DNA of 64,000 nt from a virus, in IMG/VR virus record IMGVR_UViG_3300045988_121070; one strand, written 5' to 3'. A model generated the notes under the pieces. The model saw nothing but the letters and a program-made list of their open reading frames with translations. It was not told the origin of the DNA and did no database searches. Each line of letters begins with the position of its first letter. Within the stretch, counting starts at the first letter, position 1. The position numbers and the translations under genes were made by a program. This document shows positions 1 to 45,177 of this stretch, piece after piece.

Positions 1-151
1 CTCCTTATTATACGATAGTGGCGCTATCTGATAGGGGGGGGGTAATTGGCGAACATGGGTCCAAATCAAATGGCCCCAACTCATCGATAACCCACTTTGG
101 TGTGTACCACTCATCGGAACTTACTACGGGATTGCGCTGTGTCTTGTTCAT
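1..151 (-). CDS. Phage Dam-type DNA N6-adenine methyltransferase, N-terminal part. The gene runs off the window edge and its frame is broken at a C9 tract.
   Basis: ATG at 151. Translation is MNKTQRNPVVSSDEWYTPKWVIDELGPFDLDPCSPITPP, carrying the (S)DEWYTP...LDPC signature of phage Dam-family enzymes. As written it stops at pos 1-3. With 8 rather than 9 C (sense strand, + strand G9 at 34-42) it stays open to the window edge (..PPYQIAPLSYNKE). Confidence 0.5.
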
Positions 152-154
152 TGC

Positions 155-376
155 TTATCTTGAATTATAAAGTGTGAAAGTATCTGGAATAAAGTGGCAG
201 AAGACCACTTGTTTTTTCTCGTCACAGCCGCCATAAAACGGGCAATCGTACTCCAACCACGAGCCGACATGAACTAAAGTCGGTCCTATTTTGCAGGTGT
301 CACAAGTAGCCTTCATCCCATGCGGACAGGGAGTCTTACTACTTTTAGATTTCATCTTAAACTTTATCTCCTCCAT
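155..376 (-). CDS. Hypothetical Cys-rich small protein (73 aa)
   Basis: ORF in the co-oriented block, tightly packed with its neighbours. Multiple Cys/His residues (CPHG..CDTC..CPFYGGC..CH) suggest zinc binding. Confidence 0.45.
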   Translation of the reverse strand: MEEIKFKMKSKSSKTPCPHGMKATCDTCKIGPTLVHVGSWLEYDCPFYGGCDEKKQVVFCHFIPDTFTLYNSR

Positions 377-611
377 TCTCTTTTACTTCATCAGGATTGT
401 AGGGTTGGCCACAGAAAGGGCAATACTTCGGATAGAGGTTAATGTCCTTTGGGTTCTTCGCACGAGAGCCATCCCTTTTGCTGGGATAGTAATAACCAGT
501 AACGACCATACGAGCGGTGCCGTCACTCATCAGCGCATAGTTAGCAAGAGCAGAGTCATTGAATTTCTCCTTCAGTTGCTTATTCCAGTTGTTAATACAA
601 TTACATGCCAT
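357..611 (-). CDS. Hypothetical protein (84 aa)
   Basis: ORF overlapping both neighbours by a few codons in the same orientation. Has a CPFCG motif near the C-terminus. Confidence 0.45.
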   Translation of the reverse strand: MACNCINNWNKQLKEKFNDSALANYALMSDGTARMVVTGYYYPSKRDGSRAKNPKDINLYPKYCPFCGQPYNPDEVKENGGDKV

Positions 612-858
612 AATTTTTGCGTAAAAATTTGTCTAAGGATGCGAGAGAATTTTCTATTATAATGATAACGATAGCCAATGCGCCAAAAAGACTGATGAAA
701 GGAAGACAGGCAATCATCCAATCTCTCATATATGAAGAATGGAGGCGCTGACCATTTTTAACCAGGCGAGAAATCTTCACAAGCTGGAATACTGATACTA
801 TAAGCATCGGTATCAAACAGCCGTAGAAGAGAATATCAAAAAACAAATCTTTCGTCAT
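601..858 (-). CDS. Small membrane protein (85 aa)
   Basis: Two hydrophobic segments (ILFYGCLIPMLIVSVFQLV and IACLPFISLFGALAIVIIII). Confidence 0.45.
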   Translation of the reverse strand: MTKDLFFDILFYGCLIPMLIVSVFQLVKISRLVKNGQRLHSSYMRDWMIACLPFISLFGALAIVIIIIENSLASLDKFLRKNYGM

Positions 859-1447
859 TTTTACTTAGGAGTTTGAAGGTGTAGGCCACGACTGTAGGGT
901 TGCTTTCCCAGGTGCCTTTGCCACAGATACTGTTGAACATGTCGGCGAATGCTTCGCGGGGGTTACAGTGGACGTAGTGGAAGATATGGACGTGGTACTT
1001 ACCGTTAGCGAGACGCTTACGTTTGATGTCTATCCAGGTATAGTCGCCCTCTTCGCCCGTTTCGAGGTTCCGGCATGGAACGTCACCATGAACGATACCC
1101 TCACGCATGATGTCGGCATCAGATATATCCTGAAGGAGCTGGTTGCGCTTCTCGATGATTTCTATACGATGCTGCATCAGTTCTGGACGCACGTAGAGTT
1201 TGTTTTCCCAGCCAGGGTGACGGGTAGGGTCTTCACAATCGAGTTCACGTTTTAGGCGATTGAGGTAGGCTTGTTTCTCTACATCAGGAAGACCGCGATA
1301 GATGAAACCGTAGGCTTCGGAAATAGCCAGGACTTCGCCCACGTCATACTGGCGATCTGTAGTCAGTCGGCGTGTGTTGTCCTTCAGTCCCTCAATGATA
1401 AGTTGGGTGAGAGCCTGACGGAAACGGATAGAGCGTAACTTATTCAT
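836..1447 (-). CDS. Hypothetical protein (203 aa), possibly ASCH/PUA-like at the N-terminus
   Basis: Long ORF in the operon. The N-terminal IRFRQALTQLIIEGLKDNTRR weakly resembles ASCH-type domains. Confidence 0.55.
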   Translation of the reverse strand: MNKLRSIRFRQALTQLIIEGLKDNTRRLTTDRQYDVGEVLAISEAYGFIYRGLPDVEKQAYLNRLKRELDCEDPTRHPGWENKLYVRPELMQHRIEIIEKRNQLLQDISDADIMREGIVHGDVPCRNLETGEEGDYTWIDIKRKRLANGKYHVHIFHYVHCNPREAFADMFNSICGKGTWESNPTVVAYTFKLLSKNDERFVF

Positions 1448-2007
1448 TGCTTTATCTTTTGCAGGCGTTCGTCAATAAATTCGAGGTCATCATCATGGTA
1501 TGTCATACCATTCTCGGTGTTGTGCCACATATTATAGTATGTGGTGTGGAAGAAGTCGATGGGGTGATCATCGACCAGCACTTCCTCGTCGGTATCGATG
1601 ACACGGGCACGGATTTTGGGCCAATCCTTTTTATGTGCCATGCGACGCATCCAGTCCTCGTGTTTCTGACGGATAGACTCAGGATTGCGCCACTTGCATT
1701 CGTCGCAGCGGTAGTGGCCCATTCCGTCGCAAGAGCCTTCAGGCGTACCTTTTTCGTAATCGTCACAGTCGAAGTCATCGGCAGGCGATGCCAGTACCCG
1801 CTGGTTATCTTTGCCAAAAGAGGGCTGCTGAATAATCATTACCTTGGGAGCCAGTTTGCTCATGCCTTGCATGAAGCTGGTCATTACAGGCATAGGGCAT
1901 GGTTCATTAGACATCCGTCGGATGTTGACCATAGCAAGGCTTTTGCCTTCGTCCTCTGTCACAAGGTCGAGCGCTATATAGACGCGATAGTTTTTCTTGT
2001 TTGCCAT
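1444..2007 (-). CDS. Hypothetical protein (187 aa)
   Basis: Long ORF whose ATGA overlaps the upstream gene stop. Cys cluster CDGMGHYRCDEC. Confidence 0.6.
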   Translation of the reverse strand: MANKKNYRVYIALDLVTEDEGKSLAMVNIRRMSNEPCPMPVMTSFMQGMSKLAPKVMIIQQPSFGKDNQRVLASPADDFDCDDYEKGTPEGSCDGMGHYRCDECKWRNPESIRQKHEDWMRRMAHKKDWPKIRARVIDTDEEVLVDDHPIDFFHTTYYNMWHNTENGMTYHDDDLEFIDERLQKIKQ

Positions 2008-2009
2008 TG

Positions 2010-2255
2010 TTAATTCTTTAATATGAGCCGGAGAGCGAAAAGGGCGTTACCAGCATCGCCTACACGGACTACTTCGTTATATACTCGTTCAAGACTTCGA
2101 GGATTGACCTCTTTAAACTTGTTCATTTCAGGGACGGTCAGTTTGTGACCTGCAATCGTAGCGATTTTGAAGATCATGGCGGTGCGGCTGAGACCGTTGC
2201 CTGCAAAGGGTGATTTTGCCCCCCCCTGATGCTTGGATGTTTGAAATATATTCAT
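2010..2255 (-). CDS. Hypothetical protein (81 aa) containing an in-frame G8 tract
   Basis: ORF reads KHQGGAKSP across C8 at 2219-2226 (+ strand). Confidence 0.45.
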   Translation of the reverse strand: MNIFQTSKHQGGAKSPFAGNGLSRTAMIFKIATIAGHKLTVPEMNKFKEVNPRSLERVYNEVVRVGDAGNALFALRLILKN

Positions 2256-2674: not shown

Positions 2675-3442
2675 TTAAAATAATGTTTGTTGTGATAATT
2701 CTATTTTGATATTCTTCTCAGCCATTGCGAAATACTCAGGATGAATTTCAAAGCCAATGTAATGGCTTTTCTCCTTGATAGCTGCTATGGCTGTTGTTCC
2801 GCTACCTATGAAAGGGTCGAGAATTACCCCCCCCCGTGGCACGAAAAAATGTATGAGCGTCTGAGGTAAAAGAAGCGGGAATGCTGCCCGATGCTTACCT
2901 TTGTGGTTCTTTCCAATTCTCAACACATTGGATAGTTTACCACGTTCAGCGTTCAATAGAGGAAACTGGCGGCCTTTACAGTCGTGCTTATCGAAAGCGA
3001 TGATAAATTCATACTCACAGTTGAGCACTCCTGAGTGCATGGCCGGTTCAGACGATTTCTTATCCCAGATAAGGATATCACGGATGCGGTCAGCATAGTG
3101 GCCAAAGATTTTCATCAGAGCCACCTTATTACCTGTTATCATCATTATGTTATAGAAGACAGGTCCATTGCTGACACGTAACATTTCGTCGATACACTGA
3201 CATTGCCAGTTGAAATAGTCATCCATTGACATTGCATCATTCACACGGTTGTCGTAACGATTAGCAGGGAGGCCGGTATAACCAAACGTCTCTCCTTTCG
3301 TCCATTTGGTATATTTACCAGAATGGATGCGTAGGCCGAAGTTATAAGGCGGTGAAGTGATAACAGCATTTACGCTGTTATCCTCCATCTGCCTCATTCC
3401 TTCGAGACAATCCATGTTGTATATGGTGTCAATGTTCATCAT
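2675..3442 (-). CDS. DNA methyltransferase, beta class (N6A or N4C)
   Basis: Motif IV (VITSPPYNFG) precedes motif I (GGVILDPFIGSGTTAIAA). The likely start is MMNIDTIYNMDC at 3442; the tracked ORF up to 3619 overlaps the upstream gene. The GG of GGVIL is encoded by a 9-nt homopolymer at 2827-2835, in frame. Confidence 0.9.
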   Translation of the reverse strand: MMNIDTIYNMDCLEGMRQMEDNSVNAVITSPPYNFGLRIHSGKYTKWTKGETFGYTGLPANRYDNRVNDAMSMDDYFNWQCQCIDEMLRVSNGPVFYNIMMITGNKVALMKIFGHYADRIRDILIWDKKSSEPAMHSGVLNCEYEFIIAFDKHDCKGRQFPLLNAERGKLSNVLRIGKNHKGKHRAAFPLLLPQTLIHFFVPRGGVILDPFIGSGTTAIAAIKEKSHYIGFEIHPEYFAMAEKNIKIELSQQTLF

Positions 3443-3443
3443 A

Positions 3444-4271
3444 TTACTTCTGCTCTTCAGGAATTGGTTTGAAGACCAGGGCCGACCATAGCGCAGCGAA
3501 TTGGCGACCAGCGTATTTCGCAAGTTCGCTCGATTTGAAGGCCAGGCGAGCGCCGAAGCACGCGTTCGAGCGCGAGAAACCGAGACTCGAGTCCGCAGCC
3601 GAAAGACCGCAGCGCGCACCGCTAGCCGCGAGACCCCCGACGATCAGCAGCTGTGCCTTATCATCCTCACTCATTTCGTCTATCTCCTTCTGGGTATAGA
3701 GGTAGAAGTAAGGATAGTAGCGATATTCATCCTCAGTGAATTGTGGCACCCATCCTTCATTGAGGGCATAGGTGATGATGCGGAGCTGGATGTAAGCAAG
3801 CAGGTCAGGTGTACGTGGCGAATTAAACCAGAGGTCTATCATCAGTTCGTTAGCCAGTTTGTCGCCAGCCTGAGCACGGCGATTGAGGTCATTGCAAGCA
3901 TCCTCAAAGGTCTTGATGCGTTCTGTGACGGGGCGGTTGTCTGGAGTTTCTGTTTCATCCGCAGGTATGATGCAAGACCAATCCTCTGCCAAAATATCCT
4001 CCCATGAGGGAATGTAGTAGGTGGCAGAAGCCGGTGTTTTACCGTCGTCTGTGAAGGTAATCATAATCACCTGGTCGTGGTAGGATATTTCGCCACTTCC
4101 AACGGTGCTAATCTTTGGTTTGATAGATGCTGGCAGGGATGTCATCTTTGGCACCACATCCTTTGCTATACATTGGGGGATCTGCATGACGATTTCCTGA
4201 TTGTCATGCCACGTAGAACGGGAGGCATGGCCACCCTTTTTCAGACATTCAATAACTGCTGGAAAATTCAT
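3444..4271 (-). CDS. Protein with a DUF2829-like N-terminal domain
   Basis: MNFPAVIECLKKGGHASRSTWHDNQEIVMQIP resembles the DUF2829 pattern F.eAi.alk.Gkk..R.gW. The start is taken at 4271, downstream of an inverted A-module hairpin at 4292-4311. Confidence 0.6.
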   Translation of the reverse strand: MNFPAVIECLKKGGHASRSTWHDNQEIVMQIPQCIAKDVVPKMTSLPASIKPKISTVGSGEISYHDQVIMITFTDDGKTPASATYYIPSWEDILAEDWSCIIPADETETPDNRPVTERIKTFEDACNDLNRRAQAGDKLANELMIDLWFNSPRTPDLLAYIQLRIITYALNEGWVPQFTEDEYRYYPYFYLYTQKEIDEMSEDDKAQLLIVGGLAASGARCGLSAADSSLGFSRSNACFGARLAFKSSELAKYAGRQFAALWSALVFKPIPEEQK

Positions 4272-5195: not shown

Positions 5196-5655
5196 TTAAC
5201 TTTCGGCGGTTTGGCGAGCCTTTTCGCAGACGAAAATCAGTGCTTGTTTGAGGACACCTGTTGCTGTTTCCCACTGACGTTGCAGTGCGTTGATAGCCAC
5301 TTTCTTCTCGTGTTTGAGGTCATAGATTTTCTTCTGCATATTGATGTCATTAAGTTGCATCTGATGATCGAGATTGTGCATTTCCTGACGCAGTGCTAAT
5401 GCTTTTTCGCGCTCATCGGGTGTGCCACCAGAGGGCAGTTGTGACCGTTTGAGGTCGATAAGGCAGATGATGCGGTTGCGTTCTACCTGCTGTTCGGTAC
5501 GGACGTTGAACACGTCATTGTCGCACTTGGTGCGGATCTGCATGATAGCTTCATCACGGTAGGTATTGACTTTACCAAACCATGCTCGTACTTCTTCCTC
5601 GGAGAGCTGTTTCAGGTCTTCCAGGGGGGGGGTAATTTACGAAATTTTGTTCCAT
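5196..5655 (-). CDS. Hypothetical coiled-coil protein with its 5' end frameshifted at a C9 tract
   Basis: ATG at 5655 gives MEQNFVNYPP, then goes out of frame at the sense-strand C9 (+ strand G9 at 5624-5632). With 8 C it reads MEQNFVNYPPLEDLKQLSEEEVRAWFGKVNTYRDEAIMQIRTKC.., joining the 115-aa ORF 5196-5543. Confidence 0.5.
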
Positions 5656-17264: not shown

Positions 17265-17320
17265 GGTGATAAAATCGCCTTGCAATAGACGGAACAAAAA
17301 ACCGCTGGCAGAACCAGCGG
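17265..17320 (+). repeat. Mosaic palindromic element (C + B modules). Its B hairpin plus a T-run acts as a minus-strand terminator.
   Basis: GGTGATAAAATCGCC TTGCAATAGACGGAACA AAAAA CCGCTGGCAGAACCAGCGG. On the minus strand this is CCGCTGGTTCTGCCAGCGG followed by TTTTTTG, directly after cassette 12. Confidence 0.8.
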
Positions 17321-17325: not shown

Positions 17326-17568
17326 CTAAAAGAAGTATTCGATAAGGAGGACGGTTTTGGGGTAGTGAGCGAGAGAGAGGATGTCTTCAGGCAGCTGCAT
17401 GGCATCGTAGCGGGTGTTTAGGGTGCAAGCGACACCTCCTGATGCTACGTTGACGGGGACTATTTGCCCCCCCCCCCTAAACAGCCTTGGAGGTGCGGAG
17501 GTAGTTTGGGAAAGCGGGAGAGCTGTCATGCTATGACAGCATACGGAACGACTTTTCTTATAGGTCAT
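17326..17568 (-). CDS. TRD-like cassette 12 (80 aa), in frame across the 11-nt tract
   Basis: MTYKKSRSVCCHSMTALPLSQTTSAPPRLFRGGGQIVPVNVASGGVACTLNTRYDAMQLPEDILSLAHYPKTVLLIEYFF. The ..CTLNTRYD.. core is typical of m5C-methyltransferase target-recognition domains. C11 at 17467-17477. Confidence 0.6.
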   Translation of the reverse strand: MTYKKSRSVCCHSMTALPLSQTTSAPPRLFRGGGQIVPVNVASGGVACTLNTRYDAMQLPEDILSLAHYPKTVLLIEYFF

Positions 17569-17811
17569 ATTCAATAAATACACATTGGGATGTTTCGCCG
17601 GCCATTAGAGCAGAAGCGACACGGCCATCCTCCTTGACACGAGCACGGCGGAGTTTGGAGGTAGGGTAAGCCATATCGAAGACCCCATTGGGGAGGCATT
17701 CGATATATCCGCTTTCGGTGGCCTGGCGGACTTGGAGCACGATTTGCCCCCCCTATTGGCGATGGTAAGGAACGGGCGACGCAGTTCATAGTGATGGACG
17801 TTAGAACTCAT
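17558..17811 (-). pseudogene. TRD-like cassette 11, frame broken at C7 (8 needed)
   Basis: With 8 G it reads MSSNVHHYELRRPFLTIANRGGQIVLQVRQ...GRVASALMAGETSQCVFIEYDL-stop. The tract is at 17747-17753. Confidence 0.55.
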
Positions 17812-17976
17812 ATTCAATCAAGACATAAGGAGTGGTGTTATACATGCCTGTATCGGAATCTTTGCCAATACCCCCCCTGAAAACGAGGTAATGGTGTTGC
17901 AGATCTGCTTCAAGTTGTAACGGAGAACCAGACCTTTCGTATCACGAATCCAGCCGATGAAGTTATAGGTTGTCAT
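17801..17976 (-). pseudogene. TRD-like cassette 10, frame broken at C7 (8 needed)
   Basis: With 8 G it reads MTTYNFIGWIRDTKGLVLRYNLKQICNTITSFSGGGIGKDSDTGMYNTTPYVLIEYEF-stop. The tract is at 17871-17877. Confidence 0.55.
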
Positions 17977-18109
17977 ATTCTATCAGGAGGCAATGAGGAC
18001 ATTTATAATCAGTAGCACGAAGTGCCGGAGAGACCAAAAGCCATTTGCCCCCCCCTGACTTCCATTCAAAAGCGTGGGATAAAGGATGAACGCCTACCTT
18101 ATAAATCAT
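17963..18109 (-). CDS. TRD-like cassette 9 (48 aa), intact
   Basis: MIYKVGVHPLSHAFEWKSGGGKWLLVSPALRATDYKCPHCLLIEYDNL. SPALRATDYK matches the classic (a/s)PTLRA.DYK TRD signature. C8 at 18048-18055 is in frame. Confidence 0.6.
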   Translation of the reverse strand: MIYKVGVHPLSHAFEWKSGGGKWLLVSPALRATDYKCPHCLLIEYDNL

Positions 18110-18252
18110 ATTCTATCAGGATATACCCCCCCCCCATTTGCGGCCAACACCGTTTGGACGATGCCGGCAGTACCTTGAACATTACCATCAAAACCATTAC
18201 GGAAGGTATCGTAATATAGGTTCCCAATACGAAGGATGTTGCTATAAATCAT
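18099..18252 (-). pseudogene. TRD-like cassette 8, frame broken at C10 (9 needed)
   Basis: With 9 G it reads MIYSNILRIGNLYYDTFRNGFDGNVQGTAGIVQTVLAANGGGYILIEYDL-stop. The tract is at 18126-18135. Confidence 0.55.
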
Positions 18253-18543
18253 ATTCGATAATTACATTATTGACGTGAGCGGTGATGATTGTAGCAGAGG
18301 GGTTACGAAAATAATTACAGACGAGTTCGGGCACCCCCCCATCTTAGCATCCTGACGGTAGAAACGGAGGTCGCCATTCGGGAGCCAGTGAGCAGCGATG
18401 ATATCACGGCGAGAAAGACCAAGCCGAGAACGGCTGGGAGTGGTGGCGGAGGAACCAGCGGGGGAACCGCTGGACGCTGTGGAATTGGGGGCTGCGATAG
18501 TATCGCAGCATACGGGACAATCTACAATTCTCTTTCTATCCAT
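18242..18543 (-). pseudogene. TRD-like cassette 7, frame broken at C7 (8 needed). Its N-terminal 45 aa are encoded by C+B+A palindromic modules.
   Basis: MDRKRIVDCPVCCDTIAAPNSTASSGSPAGSSATTPSRSRLGLSRRD.... With 8 G it continues ..KMGGVPELVCNYFRNPSATIITAHVNNVIIEYDL-stop. The tract is at 18334-18340. Confidence 0.55.
18419..18519 (+). repeat. Mosaic palindromic element (A + B + C modules) embedded in cassette 7
   Basis: CCAAGCCGAGAACGGCTGGG AGTGG.. CCAGCGGGGGAACCGCTGG .. GCTGCGATAGTATCGCAGC ATACGGGACA. Confidence 0.85.
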
Positions 18544-18817
18544 ACGAGGTTATCTTTTTGCACGGAGGTGATGGTGTTTGTGACTTGGGCGGAACCGAGT
18601 TCGATAACTTGGTGAAAGTTGCGGTCAGCATGAGCACCACGGAATGAGAGGCAGTCGAGGTCACGATTAACCTGCGAACATATACGGACAGAAGCGGCAC
18701 GGCTGTCTGGGTCTCGGTCGTAGAGGTAGGTCATGGTTTGCCCCCCCTACCTCGGCTTGCTGAGATACGGACTTTGGCCATGTCTGCGGACGGTTCAGTA
18801 TCTTTAATCAAGAGCAT
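18522..18817 (-). pseudogene. TRD-like cassette 6, frame broken at C7 (8 needed)
   Basis: With 8 G it reads MLLIKDTEPSADMAKVRISASRGRGGQTMTYLYDRDPDS...GSAQVTNTITSVQKDNLVWIEREL-stop. The tract is at 18741-18747. Confidence 0.55.
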
Positions 18818-18985
18818 ATTCTACTAATAAGAGGTTATCTTTCTGAATGCCAGTGATAGTGTTAGAGCAGCCATCGGTTGCAGGGAGCAAAAAACGGTCG
18901 GAGAAACGGCAATGCCCCCCCCTATCTCCGTAGATACGGCGCACGGCTTTTGCGTGAGCGGTGCGGACAGCACGGAGGATAGAAG
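18804..18985 (-). other. TRD-like cassette 5. It has no ATG of its own and is in frame across C8.
   Basis: ..ASILRAVRTAHAKAVRRIYGDRGGHCRFSDRFLLPATDGCSNTITGIQKDNLLLVEYALD-stop. It lies just after the methyltransferase core stop and two hairpin modules, in the +1 frame relative to the core. The tract is at 18915-18922. Confidence 0.5.
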
Positions 18986-19040
18986 CCCCACCGAAAACGG
19001 CGGGGAGTGACGGCTTAGACCCGCTGGGAGAACCAGCGGG
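18986..19040 (+). repeat. Mosaic palindromic element (A + B modules) between the C5-methyltransferase core stop and cassette 5
   Basis: CCCCACCGAAAACGGCGGGG AGTGACGGCTTAGA CCCGCTGGGAGAACCAGCGGG CACACT. Confidence 0.85.
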
Positions 19041-19044
19041 CACA

Positions 19045-20412
19045 CTAACCTTTGGCACGGATGGCTGCGATTTCTTCATCAGAGAGTTTGTGATCGGTGA
19101 CGGTGTAGTAAATCTTAGCGGCAGCATCCGTCTCGTTTTTGGAGAGGAACTTTATCACGCTGTCCGGCTTCAGGAAGAACTTTTCACTAACCTCCTCTTC
19201 GAGAATGTCAGCGATGCAGGTGGTGAGTTCAAAGGGACGCGGGAACTCATACTGCGTATCGCCGAGGATATCCTGACGGATGGAGATCATATAGACCCGT
19301 TCGCGGTTCTGAGCTACGCCATAGTGTTTGCTGTTCAGAATGCCAAACTTCGTTTTCTTCTCACGTTTCTCTTTGCCCCAGGGGTAAGGGAATGACGGTG
19401 CGAGGAAGTTGACATAGCCATGTTTCTCCAGTAGGGCGCACCATTCTTTGAAGTCGGGCATGTTGACGCTGTTAATGAGGGCAGAGACATTTTCCTGAAG
19501 GAGGATTTTCGGGCGCATCTGTTCAACAGCCTTTTCGGTGTACCAAAGGACTGCAGAGCGGGTGTCAGAGCCTTTTTTGATGCCCGCACGTTTTCCCGCC
19601 TGACTGATGGACTGACAGGGCGTGGAGTAAGTCAAGAAATCGATGTCAGCATCCGAGAGGTCGCTCCAGTCACATTTGGTCATGTCGCCCCTATTGAGGG
19701 AGGCATACTGCGGGAAGAGCAAGTTATGAGCAACCACGGCAGGCTGTTCATTGATTGGCCTTTTGCTTTCGGGGTCGAACTCAGCCCATGCCACGAGTTC
19801 ATAGGCGAAATCAGGATAACGCTCACGGAGCATGTCAAAGGCTATGCACTGGGAGTCATAGCCAGAGCAAAGCGTAACCACCTTCAGAGGCTGTTCGCAG
19901 AAATTGCGAGACATCTGGAAAGTGGGTAGCGCAAACATATCCTGCACTTCACCAGGTATGCGGCGGTCGGTGGGGAATAAAAAAGCCTCGTAGATATACA
20001 TGAGGACATCGCAGACGATTGAATTGCCAGCGAGCTTGTAGTGGTTGGAGTTGGAGATTATCTGCACGGGGCCAAAACGCTCTTCGGTTTTGGCGGCCTT
20101 GATTTTTTCGTAAGCAAGGGTGTAGTTCTGACGGAGGAGTTCTATTTCCTCGGCATCATCATCCTCTTCATCCCCAGCGACGGAATCACTGGGCACAGTA
20201 TCTGGAGCATCTGCAGGTGCTTCGTTTTCTTCATCTGAGGGAGGTGTTTCGAGGCTTTCCAAAGAATCGCGGAAGGCTTCTTCTACTTCTTTCATTGTTG
20301 CCGAGGGTTCCAAACCGAACACGCTTAACTCATTATCGACATCAACGAAAGCGGTGTATGACTTTTGTTCAGTAGCCATCAACTGAGAAATCTGGCGTTC
20401 AGGAACGCCCAT
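19045..20412 (-). CDS. DNA (cytosine-5) methyltransferase core with permuted motif order (IX-X, then I-VIII)
   Basis: Order along the ORF: (RL)MGVPERQ (end of motif IX), an acidic insert, YKLAGNSIVCDVL (motif X), VVTLCSGYDSQ (I), TYSTPCQSISQAG (IV, PCQ), ILLQENVSAL (VI), GVAQNRERVYMISIR (VIII), then stop. No TRD follows motif VIII in this frame. Confidence 0.85.
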   Translation of the reverse strand: MGVPERQISQLMATEQKSYTAFVDVDNELSVFGLEPSATMKEVEEAFRDSLESLETPPSDEENEAPADAPDTVPSDSVAGDEEDDDAEEIELLRQNYTLAYEKIKAAKTEERFGPVQIISNSNHYKLAGNSIVCDVLMYIYEAFLFPTDRRIPGEVQDMFALPTFQMSRNFCEQPLKVVTLCSGYDSQCIAFDMLRERYPDFAYELVAWAEFDPESKRPINEQPAVVAHNLLFPQYASLNRGDMTKCDWSDLSDADIDFLTYSTPCQSISQAGKRAGIKKGSDTRSAVLWYTEKAVEQMRPKILLQENVSALINSVNMPDFKEWCALLEKHGYVNFLAPSFPYPWGKEKREKKTKFGILNSKHYGVAQNRERVYMISIRQDILGDTQYEFPRPFELTTCIADILEEEVSEKFFLKPDSVIKFLSKNETDAAAKIYYTVTDHKLSDEEIAAIRAKG

Positions 20413-35451: not shown

Positions 35452-35586
35452 ATGAATAAGACTATTGAGAACCAGATTATCTCTCTGCATAAAGAGGGCT
35501 GGAAAGTAGAGAACATCGCGAGCCTTGCCAAGGTGAAGCCGGCGAGAGTGAAAGCCATTCTTAGAGAGAAAAACCTGTTGATGTGA
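35452..35586 (+). CDS. Small HTH-like protein (44 aa)
   Basis: MNKTIENQIISLHKEGWKVENIASLAKVKPARVKAILREKNLLM. Its stop overlaps the next start (TGATG). Confidence 0.45.
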   Translation: MNKTIENQIISLHKEGWKVENIASLAKVKPARVKAILREKNLLM

Positions 35587-36184
35587 TGAGCGAGAATAAA
35601 GACTGGGTAGGTGGCAGAGCTTCGGTGTTCAAGACATTGGGGGCGAGTAACCACACGGACCATGAACGTGCGTGGGGTGACTATTATGCCACCGAACCCA
35701 AAGCGACGGAATGGCTGCTGAAGTTGGAGCAGTTTGACGGTCCCATTCTGGAACCGGCATGTGGCGAGGGACATATCTCGAAAGTGCTGATTAGGGGGGG
35801 CAAAACGTCACTTCGCGAGACATCATCGACAGAGGCTATGGCGAGGTGGCCGACTTCCTGGCCATCGACAACCAGGAATGGAACGGGAACATCGTCACCA
35901 ATCCGCCATACGCCTATGCTCAGGAGTTTGTGGAGAAGGCGCTGCAGATTATCCCAGACGGGAAAAAGGTGTGTATGTTTTTGAAGCTAACCTTTTTGGA
36001 GGGGAAGCAGAGAAAGCACCTTTTCAGGACCCAGCCACCTGCAAGGGTATGGGTGAGTTCGTCGAGACTGCTATGTGCCATGAATGGTGAGTTTGATAAG
36101 ATCAGCGGGAGCGCTACGGCCTATGCCTGGTTTGTGTGGGTAAAGGGCTATAAGGGCGAGACGGTGATTAAGTGGTTTAACTGA
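35586..36184 (+). pseudogene. DNA N6-adenine methyltransferase (NPPY), split at a G7 tract (8 needed)
   Basis: YATEP...ILEPACGEGHISKVLIRGG, then a frame break at 35793-35799. With 8 G it continues QNVTSRDIIDRGYGEVADFLAIDNQEWNGNIVTNPPYAYAQEF... Confidence 0.75.
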
Positions 36185-36476: not shown

Positions 36477-36659
36477 ATGAATAATAACGAGACGAGGATG
36501 CAGCGACTGGTGAGATTAACGACAATGGCAGGGAAACTCTATATGAGGGACCTGGTGGAGGTTTCGACGGTGAGCAACATCCATCTGAACAGATACCGGC
36601 AGCTGGCAACGGCAGCACGGGAGGAATGGAACAAGAATAAGAGAAGGAAGGCATGTTAG
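36477..36659 (+). CDS. Hypothetical small protein (60 aa)
   Basis: ORF overlapping the start of the downstream methyltransferase gene. Confidence 0.4.
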   Translation: MNNNETRMQRLVRLTTMAGKLYMRDLVEVSTVSNIHLNRYRQLATAAREEWNKNKRRKAC

Positions 36660-37462
36660 AAGTGAACCATATCTATGAGGGTGACTGCCTGGAACTGATG
36701 GCAGAAATAGCGGATGAGAGCGTGGATGCTATCATCTGCGATTTGCCTTACCAGGTGCTGCATAAGGATAACCCGAATGCGCAATGGGACAGAATGATAC
36801 CGTTTGAGCCTCTTTGGGCGCACTATGAGCGTATCATTAAGCCGAGGGGTGTGATTGTGCTCTTCGGGCAGGGAATGTTTACCAGCGACCTGATGCAGAG
36901 CAACAGGAAGTTGTGGAGATATAACCTGATATGGTACAAAGGACGCGGAACGGGGTTCCTGAATGCGAATAGGATGCCGATGCGCTGCCATGAGGACATC
37001 TGTGTATTCTATAAGCACCTGCCAGTGTATAACCCTCAGATGGGCATTGGTGAGCCGAACCACTCGCAAGGGCGATGTGAGCAGCCGAGGAAGAACAGCT
37101 GCTATGGGAAGTTCAAGACGGGCAGGACGTATGACTATGATAAGCAGATCAGGAAGGTAGCCCCTACCCGACCGAACGAGAAATTTCCCCAGTCGATTAT
37201 CTACATTCAGAAGGAGCACGAGACGACGGTGTATCATCCAACACAGAAGCCCGTGGATCTGCTTCGCTATCTGATTAGGACTTATACCAATTCGGGGGGG
37301 GTAATTTTAGACAATACGATGGGCAGCGGTACGACATGTGTTGCTGCCATCATGGAGAAACGGAGGTACATAGGGATAGAGAAAGACCCGAAGTATTTTG
37401 CCGTGGCCGAGAAGAGAATAAAAGAAGCGGGGCGGTGGATGACGCTGGACTTCGAGGAATAA
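36653..37462 (+). CDS. DNA methyltransferase, beta class (N4C/N6A)
   Basis: Motif IV AIICDLPYQV precedes motif I GGVILDNTMGSGTTCVAA. G8 at 37294-37301 encodes the GG of GGVIL, in frame. Confidence 0.9.
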   Translation: MLEVNHIYEGDCLELMAEIADESVDAIICDLPYQVLHKDNPNAQWDRMIPFEPLWAHYERIIKPRGVIVLFGQGMFTSDLMQSNRKLWRYNLIWYKGRGTGFLNANRMPMRCHEDICVFYKHLPVYNPQMGIGEPNHSQGRCEQPRKNSCYGKFKTGRTYDYDKQIRKVAPTRPNEKFPQSIIYIQKEHETTVYHPTQKPVDLLRYLIRTYTNSGGVILDNTMGSGTTCVAAIMEKRRYIGIEKDPKYFAVAEKRIKEAGRWMTLDFEE

Positions 37463-43321: not shown

Positions 43322-43545
43322 AAACAATACATGAAATGGCTGTAGAGTATGGGGAAAAACACCAAGGCACCTGCAATATCGAGGATTTCGAGGCAGGAGC
43401 TTTGGCTGTGGTCCTTATTTTCTTCAAGATAGATCAAGAGTCTTTCGATGACAACGCTCTGTCTTGTGCCGTAGAAAATGCTATAGGAGATTTAACAATA
43501 GATTATTCGTATGAAGAACTTAAAGCCAGGAATGCTGACGTATGA
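43318..43545 (+). CDS. Hypothetical acidic protein (75 aa)
   Basis: Overlap-coupled ORF. Confidence 0.5.
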   Translation: MKTIHEMAVEYGEKHQGTCNIEDFEAGALAVVLIFFKIDQESFDDNALSCAVENAIGDLTIDYSYEELKARNADV

Positions 43546-44128
43546 TTTAGCAGACGTGCCGGCATTTGATACGACGAAGGTGTATCTAATTAAGCCGTCG
43601 ATAGACCACCCTATTGTGCCTGGGCAGCCGGTGCCGATGTCGAACGTAATAGAGCTGCATAACGTCAAGGTGACTCCTTCTGTCTTTATAGAGCCAGAAA
43701 TGGTAGCGCCGAAAGTGGAGGTGCCAAAGGAGCCTTTTAGCATAAGCGTGAATGTGAAGCACTACTTCAGTAAAGCGGATAAGAAGAGGATTAAGAGAAT
43801 GTTCTTTAAAAAGGTGCGATTGCCGAGGAAGTTGAAGAAGGCGTATAGAAAGATGACTATCCGCGACATGGATCCACATGTGGAACTGGGAGGTGAAAAG
43901 AATGGTAACGACGTGAAAATTACCATGAGCAGTTATCTGGGCATGAAGCATGGCTATAAGCGCACGAAGTGGGTTAATAAGGCTTTCTGCCACTTTAAAA
44001 AGATGCACAAGGCATGGGAGGAGCGCACAACGAAGCAGATGCAGGAGTACATGAAGCAGCAGGCAGTGGAAATGGTTGTGACGAAAGAGCAACAGGTGCG
44101 GCTGGCGGACATGCTAAGGAAGAAATGA
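43511..44128 (+). CDS. Hypothetical basic protein (205 aa)
   Basis: Lys/Arg-rich centre (KKRIKRMFFKKVRLPRKLKKAYRK). Confidence 0.55.
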   Translation: MKNLKPGMLTYDLADVPAFDTTKVYLIKPSIDHPIVPGQPVPMSNVIELHNVKVTPSVFIEPEMVAPKVEVPKEPFSISVNVKHYFSKADKKRIKRMFFKKVRLPRKLKKAYRKMTIRDMDPHVELGGEKNGNDVKITMSSYLGMKHGYKRTKWVNKAFCHFKKMHKAWEERTTKQMQEYMKQQAVEMVVTKEQQVRLADMLRKK

Positions 44129-44132
44129 GGAC

Positions 44133-44164
44133 GGCGATAAAATCGCCTGACAATAAACGAAACA
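44133..44164 (+). repeat. C-module element
   Basis: GGCGATAAAATCGCC TGACAATAAACGAAACA, 12 nt before the next ATG. Confidence 0.85.
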
Positions 44165-44175
44165 AAAATTGAGAC

Positions 44176-45177
44176 ATGCTGATAGGACTGGTGGACGTGG
44201 ACGGACACGCCAAGAAAAAGAAATGGGGTGCAACGATATACCCCAACCTCGCACTCGCTAAGATAGCGAGGTACTGGAGAAATAGGGGGGGGCAAATTGA
44301 ATGGGCCACTCCCATGAAGCATTACGACATCATATACATGTCAAAGGTGTTTAACTTTTCGCCTGACGATACCTATATATATAATGCCGACGAGATAGTG
44401 AAAGGCGGGACGGGCTATGACCCTACGAGCCAGTTGCCGGAGGAGATAGACCGTCTGCAGCCGGACTACTCGATATACCCCAACGTGCCGAAAGATACTG
44501 CCTACGGATTTCTGACGAGAGGATGCCCGAACAGGTGTAAGTGGTGTGTGGTGCCCAGAAAAGAGGGTGCCATACGTCCGTATATGGATGTAGATGAGAT
44601 AGCCATTGAGGGCAGGCGAAAGTTGGTGCTGATGGATAACAACATCTTAGCGGCAGGCGACTACTGCATGGAGCAGTTGGAGAAGATCATTGAGAGAGGG
44701 TATAGGGTGGACTTTAACCAGGCTCTCGATGCGCGACTGGTGACTGACGAGGTGGCACAGCTGCTGGCGAGGGTGAAATGGCTTGATAACAACCGCATCC
44801 GCTTTGGGTGTGACACGCACGGACAGATAGCGGAGTGTGAGCGGGCTATGGCGCTCATCAACAAGTATGGCTTCACGGGGCAGTATTTCCTTTATACGAT
44901 GCTGACGGATGACTTCAGGGAGTGTTACGAGCGGATAGTGTATTGGTGGCACAGAACGCAAGAGACGCGGGCCAATCATCATGGGAGGTACGTCTATCCC
45001 CATGCACAGCCCTACCGTGACCCGATGAATCCCAACCACCACATACCACAATGGCAAAAGGACATGGCGGGATGGGTAAATAAGAAGGCGCACTTTGTGG
45101 CGCACTCGTTTGAGGACTTTGAGCCGAGGAAAGGGTTTAGGTGTAAGCAGTACCTGAGAGAGGCAGGGATAATATAG
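44176..45177 (+). CDS. Radical SAM enzyme (333 aa)
   Basis: FLTRGCPNRCKWCVV (CxxxCxxC). G8 at 44285-44292 encodes RGGQ, in frame. Confidence 0.8.
   Translation: MLIGLVDVDGHAKKKKWGATIYPNLALAKIARYWRNRGGQIEWATPMKHYDIIYMSKVFNFSPDDTYIYNADEIVKGGTGYDPTSQLPEEIDRLQPDYSIYPNVPKDTAYGFLTRGCPNRCKWCVVPRKEGAIRPYMDVDEIAIEGRRKLVLMDNNILAAGDYCMEQLEKIIERGYRVDFNQALDARLVTDEVAQLLARVKWLDNNRIRFGCDTHGQIAECERAMALINKYGFTGQYFLYTMLTDDFRECYERIVYWWHRTQETRANHHGRYVYPHAQPYRDPMNPNHHIPQWQKDMAGWVNKKAHFVAHSFEDFEPRKGFRCKQYLREAGII

What the first reader, a model, noticed from the sequence alone, without database searches (positions are those of the whole stretch)
34..44292. 21 G/C homopolymer tracts (7-11 nt), 17 of them in DNA methyltransferase ORFs and many exactly 1 nt out of frame: candidate phase-variable methylome
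**Tract positions (+ strand).** G9 34-42; C8 2219-2226; C9 2827-2835; G9 5624-5632; C11 17467-77; C7 17747-53; C7 17871-77; C8 18048-55; C10 18126-35; C7 18334-40; C7 18741-47; C8 18915-22; G9 20428-36; C9 20681-89; C8 20861-68; C8 21005-12; C7 21152-58; G9 23556-64; G7 35793-99; G8 37294-301; G8 44285-92.

**Enrichment.** With roughly 24% G and 24% C, about 4-5 runs of 7 or more and about 1 run of 8 or more would be expected in 64 kb on both strands.

**Where they lie.** Seventeen of the 21 sit in methyltransferase-related ORFs: the Dam-like gene (1-151), the two beta-class enzymes, the NPPY enzyme and 13 tracts in the C5 locus. Most encode Gly-Gly (RGGQ, GGVIL).

**Frames read by hand.**
- In frame (ON): 2219, 2827, 17467, 18048, 18915, 20861, 21005, 37294, 44285.
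- Out of frame by exactly one nucleotide (OFF): 34, 5624, 17747, 17871, 18126, 18334, 18741, 20428, 20681, 21152, 35793.
- For each OFF tract, changing the run by one nucleotide restores a long ORF with the expected downstream motifs (for example NPPY, LTPPECYRLMG or LIEYDL).

**Is it a sequencing artefact?** A/T runs of 8 inside long ORFs are intact (for example A8 at 23061-68 in dnaN), so a generic homopolymer sequencing error is less likely.

**Interpretation.** The pattern resembles the poly-G contingency loci of Campylobacter, Neisseria and Helicobacter, but on a phage and concentrated in its anti-restriction methyltransferases. It would produce a combinatorially heterogeneous methylome in the phage population.
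Basis: partly seen in the sequence, partly recalled or inferred. Interest (0 to 1): 0.88.

Follow-up and report, generated by a model that had tools for sequence, protein, structure and literature searches.

The report
Phage switches its DNA-methylation genes individually
An uncultured gut/rumen phage carries about 20 slippage-prone runs of G or C, mostly inside its DNA-methylation genes, including a cytosine methylase whose twelve target-recognition modules are separate mini-genes each with its own run, so a phage population can carry many different methylation patterns as a hedge against host defences.

Summary
In detail: 21 G/C runs of 7-11 nt, where background models predict about 1-2, and only one run of length 6.

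The tracts are real contingency loci. They sit at the same positions in related phages down to about 61-68% identity. Among near-identical contigs, their lengths differ in 57 of 87 comparisons; A/T runs of 6 or more differ in 4 of 44. Both ON and OFF alleles exist in public data. Sequence on both sides of the tracts is under purifying selection (dN/dS 0.05-0.3).

It holds a circularly permuted cytosine-5 methyltransferase flanked by twelve small, translationally coupled ORFs. These ORFs are detached target-recognition domains (TRDs): a profile of one places it between motifs VIII and IX of canonical enzymes, and ten match tandem TRDs of fused multi-TRD proteins. Each carries its own poly-G switch.

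Whether the free TRD peptides work in trans with the core is inferred, not shown.

Every tract in this clade is followed by pyrimidine-A, whatever the codon phase or strand. That is unexplained.

Phage contingency loci and phase-variable methylases are known, so this is a new variant.

The parts
1..151 (-). Dam-family N6-adenine methyltransferase, 5' part; the gene runs off the window. Tract 34-42 is C9 on the coding strand (ITPPP) and is OFF.
   Evidence: Minus-strand translation MNKTQRNPVVSSDEWYTPKWVIDELGPFDLDPCSPI, followed by a frame break. The ortholog in L027 has C8 and a continuous ORF of 37+123 codons.
2010..2255 (-). 81-aa ORF of unknown function. Tract 2219-2226 (G8, codons 10-12, QGGA) is ON.
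   Evidence: No Pfam or PHROG hit. Orthologs: G8 ON (L025); G10 and G7 OFF (L027, L033).
2675..3619 (-). N6_N4 (beta-class) DNA methyltransferase. Tract 2827-2835 (G9, GGVILDPF just before motif I) is ON.
   Evidence: PF01555 at 2.7e-29 over the full profile. Orthologous tracts are G7-G9 in L025-L032.
5196..5655 (-). 153-aa ORF of unknown function, not a methyltransferase. Tract 5624-5632 (C9 on the coding strand, codons 8-11, NYPPP) is OFF if the ATG at 5655 is the start.
   Evidence: No Pfam or PHROG hit. Orthologs carry C8, C8, C9 and C10. With this start codon, C7 or C10 would be in frame.
21100..21248 (-). TRD mini-ORF 'zeta'. Tract 21152-21158 is G7, one G short (OFF).
   Evidence: The downstream peptide NGHDTDKPKILIEYDL is 88-94% identical in L003-L005 with dS saturated. 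The tract is G6-G9 in near-identical contigs and G8 (ON) in L092.
20901..21110 (-). TRD mini-ORF 'A1'. Tract 21005-21012 is G8 (ON). The leader contains the two-hairpin insert.
   Evidence: It matches a TRD unit of P0242 (5e-10 in a set of 80 proteins). In L001 and L002 the stretch 20917-21031 is replaced by a different module family.
20723..20911 (-). TRD mini-ORF 'alpha' (RGGQIAPVNV...AATLTTRYD...LIEYDL). Tract 20861-20868 is G8 (ON).
   Evidence: Orthologs in L003-L005 give dN/dS about 0.07. The tract is G7-G9 in near-identical contigs.
19045..20726 (-). Circularly permuted C5 cytosine methyltransferase core with an N-terminal TRD (A3). The order is TRD-IX-X-I-IV-VI-VIII. Two tracts: 20681-20689 (G9, one extra, OFF) and 20428-20436 (C9 on the coding strand, the PP of motif IX RKLTPPEC, one extra, OFF).
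   Evidence: PF00145 at 8e-36. Setting both tracts to 8 gives a 559-aa protein. Natural intact alleles of 555-559 aa exist (P0056, P0065; L092, L098). Alignment to M.MpeI puts motif IX N-terminal to motifs IV-VIII.
18804..19079 (-). TRD mini-ORF 'eta'. Its ATG overlaps the 3' end of the core gene. Tract 18915-18922 is G8 (ON).
   Evidence: It matches TRD units of P0201 and P0290 (3e-10, 2e-09). The tract is G7 or G8 in near-identical contigs.
18522..18817 (-). TRD mini-ORF 'theta'. Tract 18741-18747 is G7, one short (OFF).
   Evidence: It is ON (G8) in L003, L008, L011 and L093. In L004 the tract at this position is lost (RGRG) and a new one sits elsewhere in the same module.
18242..18543 (-). 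TRD mini-ORF 'B3'. Tract 18334-18340 is G7, one short (OFF). The leader contains the two-hairpin insert.
   Evidence: G8 (ON) in L002, L012 and L013.
18099..18252 (-). TRD mini-ORF 'epsilon'. Tract 18126-18135 is G10, one extra (OFF); the ON length is 9.
   Evidence: G9 (ON) in L001; G7-G8 elsewhere. The upstream part has dN/dS 0.08 against L003.
17963..18109 (-). TRD mini-ORF 'iota'. Tract 18048-18055 is G8 (ON).
   Evidence: The tract ranges from G7 to G11 in more than 30 assemblies.
17801..17976 (-). TRD mini-ORF 'delta' (CNTITSFSGG-IGKDS...LIEYEF). Tract 17871-17877 is G7, one short (OFF).
   Evidence: It matches TRD units in P0191 and P0201. The tract is G6-G9 elsewhere.
17558..17811 (-). 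TRD mini-ORF 'gamma', 84 aa when ON. Tract 17747-17753 is G7, one short (OFF).
   Evidence: The ON alleles P0001 (G8) and P0002 (G11) and the OFF allele P0050 are in public data. The 84-aa and 60-aa forms are each on about 100 contigs. A profile of the family hits the TRD slot of canonical C5 methyltransferases such as P0200.
17326..17568 (-). TRD mini-ORF 'beta', the last of the array. Tract 17467-17477 is G11 (ON).
   Evidence: The tract is G7-G11 elsewhere. Its final Tyr codon is TAC, so there is no overlapping ATG.
17302..17320 (-). Intrinsic-terminator-like hairpin with a T-run, closing the C5 operon.
23556..23564 (-). Intergenic C9 (minus strand), 76 nt upstream of dnaN. It forms the 5' arm of a copy of the dispersed CCCCGCCG-TTCT-CGGCGGGG hairpin and breaks the Y-A flank rule, so it is probably a different class of run.
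   Evidence: The roughly 75-nt element is absent from L002.
35586..36184 (+). NPPY N6-adenine DNA methyltransferase (motif I EPACGEGH, motif IV NPPY). Tract 35794-35800 is G7 (RGGQ), one short (OFF).
   Evidence: The repaired protein hits phrog_799 'DNA methyltransferase' at 1e-62. G8 is ON in L034; G7 and G9 are OFF in L035, L040 and L058.
36653..37462 (+). N6_N4 (beta-class) DNA methyltransferase. Tract 37294-37301 is G8 (GGVIL) and ON.
   Evidence: PF01555 at 1.7e-30 over the full profile. G8 in 7 relatives; G7 or G9 in 6.
44176..45177 (+). Radical-SAM-domain protein. Tract 44285-44292 is G8 (NRGGQI) and ON.
   Evidence: phrog_9298 at 5.5e-98. G9 is OFF in L040 and G8 is ON in L058. In L034 the tract is interrupted, which locks it ON.

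Best explanation
**What it is.** The long G/C runs are hypermutable contingency loci. A clade of uncultured phages, known only from metagenome assemblies (one set is labelled pig gut), keeps them in genes that modify its own DNA.

**The switch.** Replication slippage adds or removes a G. That moves the downstream part of the gene in or out of frame, so each gene is heritably but reversibly ON or OFF. Shown here:
- the runs are conserved in position;
- they are polymorphic in length between near-identical genomes;
- both alleles exist;
- both flanks are under purifying selection.

Inferred: switching happens at high frequency within a population.

**Where the switches sit.** In this window there are 20 switches in genes:
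- a Dam-family enzyme, two beta-class N6/N4 enzymes and an NPPY adenine methyltransferase;
- a radical-SAM protein and two small unknown proteins;
- 13 in the cytosine-5 methyltransferase operon.

**The operon.** It encodes one circularly permuted catalytic core (IX-X-I...VIII) and twelve short ORFs of 48-97 aa. Each ORF starts at an ATG that overlaps the previous stop, and each carries its own poly-G. The ORFs are detached target-recognition domains (TRDs), homologous to the TRDs of canonical and multi-TRD C5 methyltransferases (shown).

**Most likely mechanism (inferred).** Each expressed TRD peptide docks on the core and adds one sequence specificity. Unbundling the TRDs lets each be switched without truncating the rest of the enzyme, so the population samples up to 2^12 cytosine-methylation patterns, multiplied by the adenine enzymes. 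The likely benefit is bet-hedging between hosts whose restriction enzymes are blocked by methylation and hosts whose enzymes attack methylated DNA.
For: - **Enrichment and bimodal lengths:**
- **Conserved position:** orthologous tracts occur in relatives at about 98%, 68% and 61% identity and are absent from distant homolog loci.
- **Length polymorphism:** 57 of 87 comparisons differ for G/C runs of 7 or more, against 4 of 44 (A/T runs of 6 or more), 0 of 95 (A/T runs of 5) and 0 of 10 (G/C runs of 5-6). Tracts hold 5-10 indels per 100 nt, against 1-8 per 5-19 kb elsewhere.
- **ON/OFF mixture:** 118 tract calls in 13 contigs give 44 ON, 59 one short and 15 one extra, with a distinct vector per genome. 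Twenty more assemblies show G6-G11.
- **Both alleles in public data:**
- **Purifying selection:** dN/dS is 0.05-0.3 on both sides of the tracts, with dS saturated.
- **Tracts are replaced when lost:** in L004 a lost tract is replaced by a new one elsewhere in the same module.
- **Permuted core:**; natural precedents are in PMC5944983.
- **Modules are TRDs:** the gamma profile hits 567 proteins, falling between motifs VIII and IX of canonical PF00145 enzymes such as P0200. Ten of twelve modules match adjacent units of fused multi-TRD proteins.
- **Modules are free-standing genes:** 47 gamma clusters are all 76-93 aa. An overlapping ATG lies 5, 8 or 11 nt before the stop at about 45 of 55 junctions, and TAC or CAC replaces TAT or CAT at most terminal modules.
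- **A core without a cis TRD exists:** in L099 the core (P0091, 138 members) starts right after a module's stop codon.
- **Split C5 methyltransferases can assemble:** PMC5944983 and PMC2836561.
Against: - No read-level data, so heterogeneity within a sample and the switching rate are unknown.
- G7, one short of ON, is the commonest length (55 of 118 calls). The zeta tract is OFF in 5 of 6 divergent genomes. Some expression may therefore depend on slippage during transcription or translation rather than on DNA switching.
- L009 shares all six comparable tract lengths with the window despite about 3.5% divergence, so the lengths are not fully randomised.
- The motif-IX tract is OFF in about half the assemblies, which silences the whole C5 system in those genomes.
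- Trans action of TRD-only peptides has no precedent; known split enzymes keep the TRD attached to motifs I-VIII or to IX-X.
- AlphaFold gave low confidence for the gamma peptide (pLDDT 50) and for the cis TRD (below 50).
- The strict G(n)-Y-A flank is not predicted by simple slippage.
Confidence: 0.75

Rival explanations
1. The runs are recoding signals. RNA polymerase slippage or -1 ribosomal frameshifting on the G-run restores the frame at some fixed efficiency. On this view the 'OFF' (mostly G7) genes are expressed at a low level, and the DNA length differences are incidental.
For: G7, one short of in-frame, is the modal state (55 of 118 calls). It is conserved for the zeta module in 5 of 6 divergent genomes, yet the downstream part is under strong purifying selection. 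In the one-short state the ribosome is in the frame of the next module. G GGG GGY has the form of a slippery heptamer.
Against: In-frame alleles (G8, G11) of the same tracts are common. The tract sits in all three codon phases and on both coding strands. Lengths range from 6 to 11, and no conserved downstream stimulatory structure was seen. The two mechanisms are not mutually exclusive.
Confidence: 0.1
2. The mini-ORFs are a reservoir of TRD cassettes that are shuffled by recombination, with the tracts and junction repeats as crossover sites. The free-standing copies are not functional proteins themselves.
For: L098 and P0049 show a deletion joining two modules exactly at GGGGGGGGCAAAT. Module order differs between genomes, and one module is replaced between the window and L001/L002.
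Against: Silent cassettes would not need start codons. The overlapping ATGs are conserved, with a TAT-versus-TAC contrast between internal and terminal junctions. The leaders upstream of the tracts are also under purifying selection. The gamma family has a constant length of about 84 aa across 57-99% identity. In L099 no expression site with a cis TRD exists.
Confidence: 0.07
3. The frame breaks are homopolymer errors of sequencing or assembly, and the true genome has all genes in frame.
For: Homopolymers are error-prone on some platforms. The window's own reads are not available.
Against: Independent assemblies from several projects differ by up to 4 nt at the same tract. A/T runs and shorter G/C runs are stable. 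All A/T runs of 7 or more are in frame. An artefact cannot explain conservation of the runs in diverged genomes or the lack of length-6 runs.
Confidence: 0.03
4. The frameshifted genes are decaying pseudogenes, and the runs are mutationally unstable but neutral.
For: Eleven of the 20 in-gene tracts are out of frame in this window, including both tracts in the core gene.
Against: dN/dS is 0.05-0.3 with saturated dS on both sides of the tracts. Intact alleles are frequent. Tracts are re-acquired at new positions. Runs are purged elsewhere in the genome.
Confidence: 0.02

Closest known systems
Poly-G contingency loci of Campylobacter phages (Fletchervirus receptor-binding proteins; Sorensen et al. 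2021, as cited in 10.1101/2025.10.21.683753 and PMC12823448) and A-run contingency loci of T-even phages, including agt (Gomez et al. 2025 preprint)
   Same: They are phage-encoded homopolymer tracts, 7-11 G in Fletchervirus, that shift frame and create population heterogeneity as a hedge. The T2 agt case also concerns a DNA-modification gene caught between two kinds of restriction.
   Different: Here about 20 tracts are concentrated in methyltransferases and their specificity modules rather than in receptor-binding proteins. The tracts are conserved across a diverged clade and obey a strict G(n)-Y-A flank rule. The host lineage and environment are different.
Phase-variable DNA methyltransferases of bacteria (phasevarions: Type III mod genes of Haemophilus, Neisseria, Helicobacter and Moraxella; e.g. 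PMC5700931, PMC6902483)
   Same: A simple repeat inside a methyltransferase ORF switches methylation ON or OFF.
   Different: These are orphan phage enzymes with no restriction partner in sight, and the presumed purpose is self-protection, not host gene regulation. Switching acts on separate specificity modules as well as on whole enzymes.
Multispecific C5 methyltransferases of Bacillus phages (SPR, phi3T, rho11s; from my own knowledge of the Trautner-lab literature) and the fused multi-TRD proteins found here (P0201, P0306, P0199)
   Same: One catalytic core is combined with several tandem TRDs, and the TRD units are homologous to the window's modules. Both are phage anti-restriction enzymes.
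   Different: In those enzymes the TRDs are in one polypeptide. Here every TRD is its own ORF with its own start, stop and poly-G switch, and the core is circularly permuted.
Circularly permuted C5 methyltransferases (M.BssHII, M.Alw26I and others) and naturally split ones (M.AquI, M.EcoHK31I) (PMC5944983, PMC2836561)
   Same: The permutation point lies in the variable region, so motifs IX-X precede I-VIII. Activity can be reconstituted from separate polypeptides split near the TRD.
   Different: In known split enzymes the TRD stays attached to motifs I-VIII or to IX-X, with a single fixed partner. Here the TRD alone would be the detachable subunit, with about 12 alternatives.
Phase-variable Type I specificity subunits (hsdS shuffling; from my own knowledge)
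   Same: Methylation specificity is changed by changing which TRD is used with a constant catalytic subunit.
   Different: Those systems act by site-specific inversion or recombination of hsdS, not by homopolymer frameshifts, and belong to a different enzyme class.

Membership tests
Simple-sequence-repeat contingency loci (phase variation) | A mononucleotide repeat, over-represented relative to chance, lies within an ORF or promoter | tested here: met
   21 runs of 7 or more against 0.8-1.7 expected; 20 of 21 lie in ORFs.
Simple-sequence-repeat contingency loci (phase variation) | Repeat length is hypervariable between closely related genomes while the flanks are stable | tested here: met
   57 of 87 orthologous comparisons differ, against 0-9% for control runs.
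Simple-sequence-repeat contingency loci (phase variation) | Length changes toggle the reading frame, and both ON and OFF alleles occur | tested here: met
   44 ON and 74 OFF among 118 calls. P0001 and P0002 are ON and P0050 is OFF. Core proteins of 559, 535, about 490 and 455 aa occur.
Simple-sequence-repeat contingency loci (phase variation) | The gene is kept functional by selection, so it is not a pseudogene | tested here: met
   dN/dS is 0.05-0.3 on both sides of the tracts.
Simple-sequence-repeat contingency loci (phase variation) | High-frequency, reversible switching within a clonal population | not testable with these tools
   This needs reads or plaque-level amplicons. Only consensus assemblies are available.
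C5 cytosine DNA methyltransferase, circularly permuted type | Catalytic motifs I, IV (PCQ), VI (ENV), VIII (QxRxR), IX and X are present | tested here: met
   LCSGYDS, STPCQS, LQENV, QNRERV, RKLTPPECYRLMG and AGNSIV in the repaired protein. PF00145 and TIGR00675 hits.
C5 cytosine DNA methyltransferase, circularly permuted type | Motifs IX-X precede motif I, with the N-terminus in the variable region | tested here: met
   Query residues 93-122 align to M.MpeI 335-364 and query 320-497 to M.MpeI 80-251. The definition is from PMC5944983.
Multispecific phage C5 methyltransferases | Several TRDs are homologous to TRDs of other C5 methyltransferases | tested here: met
   The gamma profile falls in the VIII-IX interval of P0200. 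Ten of twelve modules match units of fused multi-TRD proteins.
Multispecific phage C5 methyltransferases | The TRDs lie in tandem inside one polypeptide, between motifs VIII and IX | tested here: not met
   Each module ends in a stop and the next starts at its own ATG. This is conserved in six diverged genomes. All gamma-family proteins are 76-93 aa.
Multispecific phage C5 methyltransferases | Each TRD confers an independent target specificity | not testable with these tools
   This needs methylome data or biochemistry.
Split (heteromeric) C5 methyltransferases such as M.AquI and M.EcoHK31I | Essential parts are encoded as separate polypeptides that must associate | tested here: inconclusive
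   In L099 the core has no cis TRD, which implies a trans requirement. In the window one TRD (A3) is fused to the core. Association was not testable, and the AlphaFold models were of low confidence.
Phasevarion (phase-variable Type III mod with a res partner) | The methyltransferase is part of a restriction-modification system | tested here: not met
   The genes next to the tract-bearing methyltransferases are small ORFs, a Tad2-like protein, ThyX and dUTPase. No Res-like or other endonuclease partner was seen apart from an HNH homing-type ORF.
Programmed -1 ribosomal frameshift site | A fixed slippery heptamer in a defined codon phase with a downstream stimulator | tested here: not met
   Tract length is polymorphic and the codon phase varies (fU 0, 1 or 2). 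Tracts occur on both coding strands, and in-frame alleles are common.

The most novel reading that the evidence does not exclude
The twelve mini-ORFs encode free-standing TRD peptides. These act as exchangeable specificity subunits for a TRD-less, circularly permuted C5 methyltransferase core, and each is under its own poly-G switch. That would be a combinatorial, Type-I-like subunit logic not known for cytosine-5 methyltransferases. In addition, the clade-specific, near-invariant G(n)-Y-A flank may mark a sequence-dependent mechanism that creates or destabilises the tracts.
Probability: 0.4. Interest if true: 0.9.

Novelty: new variant of a known kind. Interest (0 to 1): 0.78.

Why it matters
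**For phage-host biology.** A phage can diversify its own epigenome combinatorially, not only its receptor-binding proteins. That is a direct answer to hosts that carry both methylation-blocked and methylation-dependent restriction. It makes testable whether methylation patterns of phage populations track the defence repertoire of a gut community.

**For enzymology.** The unbundled TRD array suggests that C5 methyltransferase specificity can be supplied by small detachable peptides. This would be useful for engineering targeted methylation.

**For genome annotation.** The many 'frameshifted' methyltransferase fragments and tiny hypothetical proteins in gut and rumen viromes may be switchable genes, not junk or assembly errors.

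Tried and rejected
**Searches that found nothing useful**
- Megablast and blastn against isolated phages found no relative. Only dUTPase matched at 69-76%.
- tblastn of the core found nothing closer than 44% identity, over the catalytic half only.
- An Rfam scan of 16.5-24.5 kb gave only sub-threshold chance hits.
- Pfam, NCBIfam and a PDB profile search did not recognise the modules. There were only weak PHROG methyltransferase hits at about 1e-3. The exhaustive profile search was needed to show TRD identity.

**Structure predictions that were uninformative**
- AlphaFold of the gamma peptide alone gave pLDDT 50. In the natural full-length enzyme P0065 the TRD had pLDDT below 50. Both are too weak for fold searches or docking inference, so no fold search was run.

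**Readings I withdrew or corrected**
- I first read the L005 core as fused in frame to a C-terminal module. That is wrong: 'ta' plus the first G of the tract makes a TAG stop.
- The 'longest ORF' heuristic mis-scored 37294 and 5624, and I corrected those by hand.

**Mechanisms I considered and dropped**
- Translational bypassing, introns, or +1 frameshifting at the LIEYDL*/ATG junctions. No matching take-off and landing codons or slippery sites exist, and the conserved element is the ATG itself.

**A check that gave no answer**
- I looked for ON and OFF alleles in the same sample. None appeared among the ten places shown for each allele.

Full report
**1. The observation**

The window contains exactly the 21 G/C runs listed. 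One is offset by a base: the G7 lies at 35794-35800. The run-length distribution is bimodal, with 36 runs of exactly five, one of exactly six and 21 of seven or more. Background models built with the tracts masked predict 0.8-1.7 runs of seven or more and 4-7 runs of six. So long runs are enriched at least tenfold while intermediate runs are depleted. All ten A/T runs of seven or more lie in intact long ORFs.

Gene identities:
- Tract 34: a Dam-family gene on the minus strand.
- Tracts 2827 and 37294: two PF01555 enzymes.
- Tract 35794: an NPPY adenine methyltransferase (phrog_799, 1e-62).
- Thirteen tracts: the C5 operon.
- Tract 44285: a radical-SAM protein.
- Tracts 2219 and 5624: two small unknown ORFs.
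- Tract 23556: an intergenic run beside a hairpin.

Tract 5624 encodes NYPPP in a non-methyltransferase ORF, not an NPPY motif.

**2. Are the tracts hypermutable and maintained?**

No isolated phage is related. Metagenomic collections, however, hold many relatives.

*Position.* Relatives at about 98%, 68% and 61% identity carry 12-13 long runs at corresponding positions of the C5 operon and in the other genes, and again have almost no runs of six. More distant homolog loci have none.

*Length.* Among contigs 96-98% identical to the window, orthologous tracts range from 6 to 11 nt. For example, tract 17467 reads G11, G7, G8 and G10 in different contigs. Tracts hold 5-10 indel events per 100 nt, against 1-8 events in 5-19 kb elsewhere.

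| Run class | Orthologous comparisons that differ in length |
|---|---|
| G/C runs of 7 or more | 57 of 87 |
| A/T runs of 6 or more | 4 of 44 |
| A/T runs of 5 | 0 of 95 |
| G/C runs of 5-6 | 0 of 10 |

*State.* Of 118 tract calls in 13 contigs, 44 are in frame, 59 are one G short and 15 are one G long. Each non-duplicate genome has its own ON/OFF vector. Twenty further assemblies show the same spread.

Within one 90% cluster, the 84-aa form and the 60-aa form expected from OFF alleles are each on about 100 contigs. The core gene, doubly frameshifted here, is an intact 559-aa ORF in L092 and L098.

*Selection.* Against the 68% relatives, dS is saturated while dN/dS is 0.05-0.3 both upstream and downstream of the tracts. 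This includes pairs in which the downstream part is out of frame in both assemblies. In L004 one module has lost the tract at the usual place and gained one elsewhere.

Together these results exclude assembly artefact and pseudogene decay, and they fit contingency loci. Switching within a population could not be examined.

**3. What the C5 locus really is**

On the minus strand the order is dnaN, dUTPase, an HNH ORF, three small ORFs, the methyltransferase, eight more small ORFs and a terminator.

*The core.* With its two tracts set to 8, the methyltransferase is a 559-aa protein reading TRD-IX (RKLTPPECYRLMG)-acidic linker-X (GNS)-I-IV (PCQ)-VI (ENV)-VIII (QNRER). Alignment to M.MpeI confirms that motif IX precedes motifs IV-VIII. 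This is the natural permutation type described for M.BssHII and others (PMC5944983).

*The small ORFs.* They are 48-97 aa, and each:
- begins at an ATG made from a Tyr-Asp/Glu (TAT-GA) or His-Asp (CAT-GA) pair lying 5, 8 or 11 nt before the stop of the preceding ORF;
- contains one poly-G encoding Gly-Gly(-Gly);
- ends in [LIV][IV]EY[DE]x-stop.

This layout is conserved in six diverged genomes. In four of the five arrays checked, the last module uses TAC or CAC instead, so the ATG is missing exactly where no module follows. That is a synonymous-codon signature of selection on the overlapping start codons.

**4. The small ORFs are detached target-recognition domains**

Pfam, NCBIfam and a PDB profile search did not recognise them.

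An exhaustive profile search with the gamma family found 567 proteins. Many are C5 methyltransferases of 300-700 aa with the match at an internal position. In P0200, a canonical PF00145 enzyme, the match lies between QNRERVF (motif VIII) and FSDREIFRLMG (motif IX).

Other hits are polypeptides made of several TRD units in tandem, followed by motifs IX and X. Ten of the window's twelve modules match distinct, adjacent units in such proteins. In P0201, for example, eta, gamma and delta match residues 77-125, 127-181 and 255-290.

All 47 clusters of close gamma relatives are stand-alone proteins of 76-93 aa. The window therefore holds an unbundled version of a multispecific C5 methyltransferase.

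**5. How it most likely works**

*Shown:* one permuted core; twelve separately translated TRD genes, each with its own frameshift switch; and two further switches in the core gene.

*Inferred:* TRD peptides act in trans on the core. Support:
- In L099 the core (P0091, 138 member sequences) starts at the conserved MIAKIYP... directly after the stop of a module, so it has no cis TRD.
- In the pig-gut relative L100 a module is separated from the core by a single in-frame stop.
- Many core calls start at MIAKIYP.
- C5 methyltransferases split next to the TRD reassemble efficiently, and natural heteromeric enzymes exist (PMC5944983, PMC2836561).

Against it: no enzyme is known in which the TRD alone is the separate subunit, and AlphaFold gave low confidence for the gamma peptide and for the cis TRD.

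Separate ORFs make functional sense. In a fused multi-TRD protein, one frameshift would truncate everything downstream. Unbundling allows each specificity to be switched independently.

The likely selective logic is the one shown for T2 agt (10.1101/2025.10.21.683753): methylation protects against some restriction systems and sensitises to others.

**6. Rivals**

- *Expression-level slippage.* G7 is modal, and the zeta tract is OFF in five of six diverged genomes, so this cannot be excluded and may coexist. It does not explain the frequent in-frame alleles or the variable codon phase.
- *A cassette reservoir for recombination.* This is partly true. L098 and P0049 show a deletion joining two modules exactly at GGGGGGGGCAAAT, and one module differs between the window and L001/L002. 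But silent cassettes would not keep start codons and selected leaders.
- *Artefact and pseudogene readings.* The evidence in section 2 contradicts both.

**7. Unexplained**

In the G orientation, every long tract of this clade is followed by pyrimidine-A. Over 109 non-redundant tracts, +1 is Y in 99% and +2 is A in 96%. After G3-G5 runs the figures are about 69% and 27-30%.

The rule holds for tracts that encode RGGQ, GGV, GGI, GGA or GGY, and for the three tracts that are C on the coding strand. It is therefore independent of codon phase and of transcription direction. Long G-runs in unrelated phages do not follow it (about 6 of 27). It points to a DNA-level constraint on how these tracts arise, slip or recombine.

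**8. Comparison and novelty**

Already described:
- phage contingency loci (Fletchervirus poly-G in receptor-binding proteins; T-even A-runs, including agt);
- a poly-G in a Bordetella phage methylase gene, mentioned in the Gomez preprint;
- bacterial phase-variable methyltransferases;
- multispecific and permuted C5 methyltransferases.

New here:
- the scale: about 20 switches concentrated in the DNA-modification genes of one phage, conserved across a clade;
- the unbundling of a multispecific enzyme into individually switchable TRD mini-genes;
- the flank rule.

I rate it a new variant of a known kind, of high interest to people working on phage-host conflict and on methyltransferases.

Noticed in passing
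all 21 tracts in the window; 109 non-redundant tracts in L001-L059: There is a strict 3' flank rule: G(7 or more)-Y-A. +1 is a pyrimidine in 99% and +2 is A in 96%, and the upstream side is AT-rich (A-T-T-A). The rule is independent of codon phase and coding strand, and unrelated phages do not show it.
   Followed up: partly
window 4295, 5695, 8711, 8966, 10817, 18423, 18990, 21035, 23544, 28544, 30100, 45226, 46011, 50637, 53470, 53861: A dispersed hairpin, CCCAGCCG-TTCT-CGGCTGGG, occurs 16 times against 0.7 expected. All but one copy are on the minus strand, often just after stop codons. It is sometimes paired with a second hairpin (GCTGCGAT-nnn-ATCGCAGC) that shows compensatory changes (GCTGTCAT/ATGACAGC). 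Copies also sit in frame inside the leaders of three TRD mini-ORFs, read in different frames. The copy upstream of dnaN is absent from L002.
   Followed up: partly
L098 4834-4846 (= window 17742-17753 joined to 17467-17474); protein P0049: Two poly-G tracts recombined and deleted the gamma TRD, which fused the gamma leader to the beta TRD. The tracts plus CAAAT therefore also act as crossover points.
   Followed up: yes
window 20917-21031 vs L001 3451-3569 and L002 9381-9500: One TRD module is replaced by a different module family between genomes that are otherwise about 97% identical. Module order also differs among L003, L004 and L005.
   Followed up: partly
module junctions, e.g. window 17558-17568, 17801-17811, 20723-20726; last module 17326-17340: Internal junctions use TAT-GA or CAT-GA, which creates the next ORF's ATG. 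The last module of most arrays uses TAC or CAC instead. Because the ATG is always in the +1 frame, a tract that is one G short puts the ribosome in the next module's frame. In the window this makes a 115-aa read-through ORF (20901-21248) from the zeta leader into module A1.
   Followed up: partly
window 3444-4313, 4317-5147, 5715-6647, 21851-22384: The tract-bearing genes at the left end sit in what looks like an anti-defence and nucleotide-metabolism island: a Tad2-like (Thoeris anti-defence) protein, a second radical-SAM-like protein, ThyX and dUTPase.
   Followed up: no
L009 vs window 18741-21158: L009 shares all six comparable tract lengths with the window despite about 3.5% nucleotide divergence. 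That is unexpected if the lengths were fully randomised, and it may reflect selection for a particular ON/OFF pattern or a recent exchange of this segment.
   Followed up: no
L004 and L005 motif IX; L034 radical-SAM gene; P0040: Some relatives have lost individual switches and are locked ON. Motif IX reads TPVEC or TPREC without a C-run in L004 and L005. The radical-SAM tract is interrupted in L034. One gamma homolog reads SRGV instead of RGGQ.
   Followed up: no
core protein residues about 150-195 (window about 20150-20290); P0097, P0107, P0109: There is an acidic low-complexity linker between motifs IX and X of the permuted enzyme. Some relatives have large extra insertions before motif IV.
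   Followed up: no
whole window: G/C runs of exactly six are almost absent (1 observed, 4-22 expected). This suggests that runs near the slippage threshold are purged from the other genes.
   Followed up: partly
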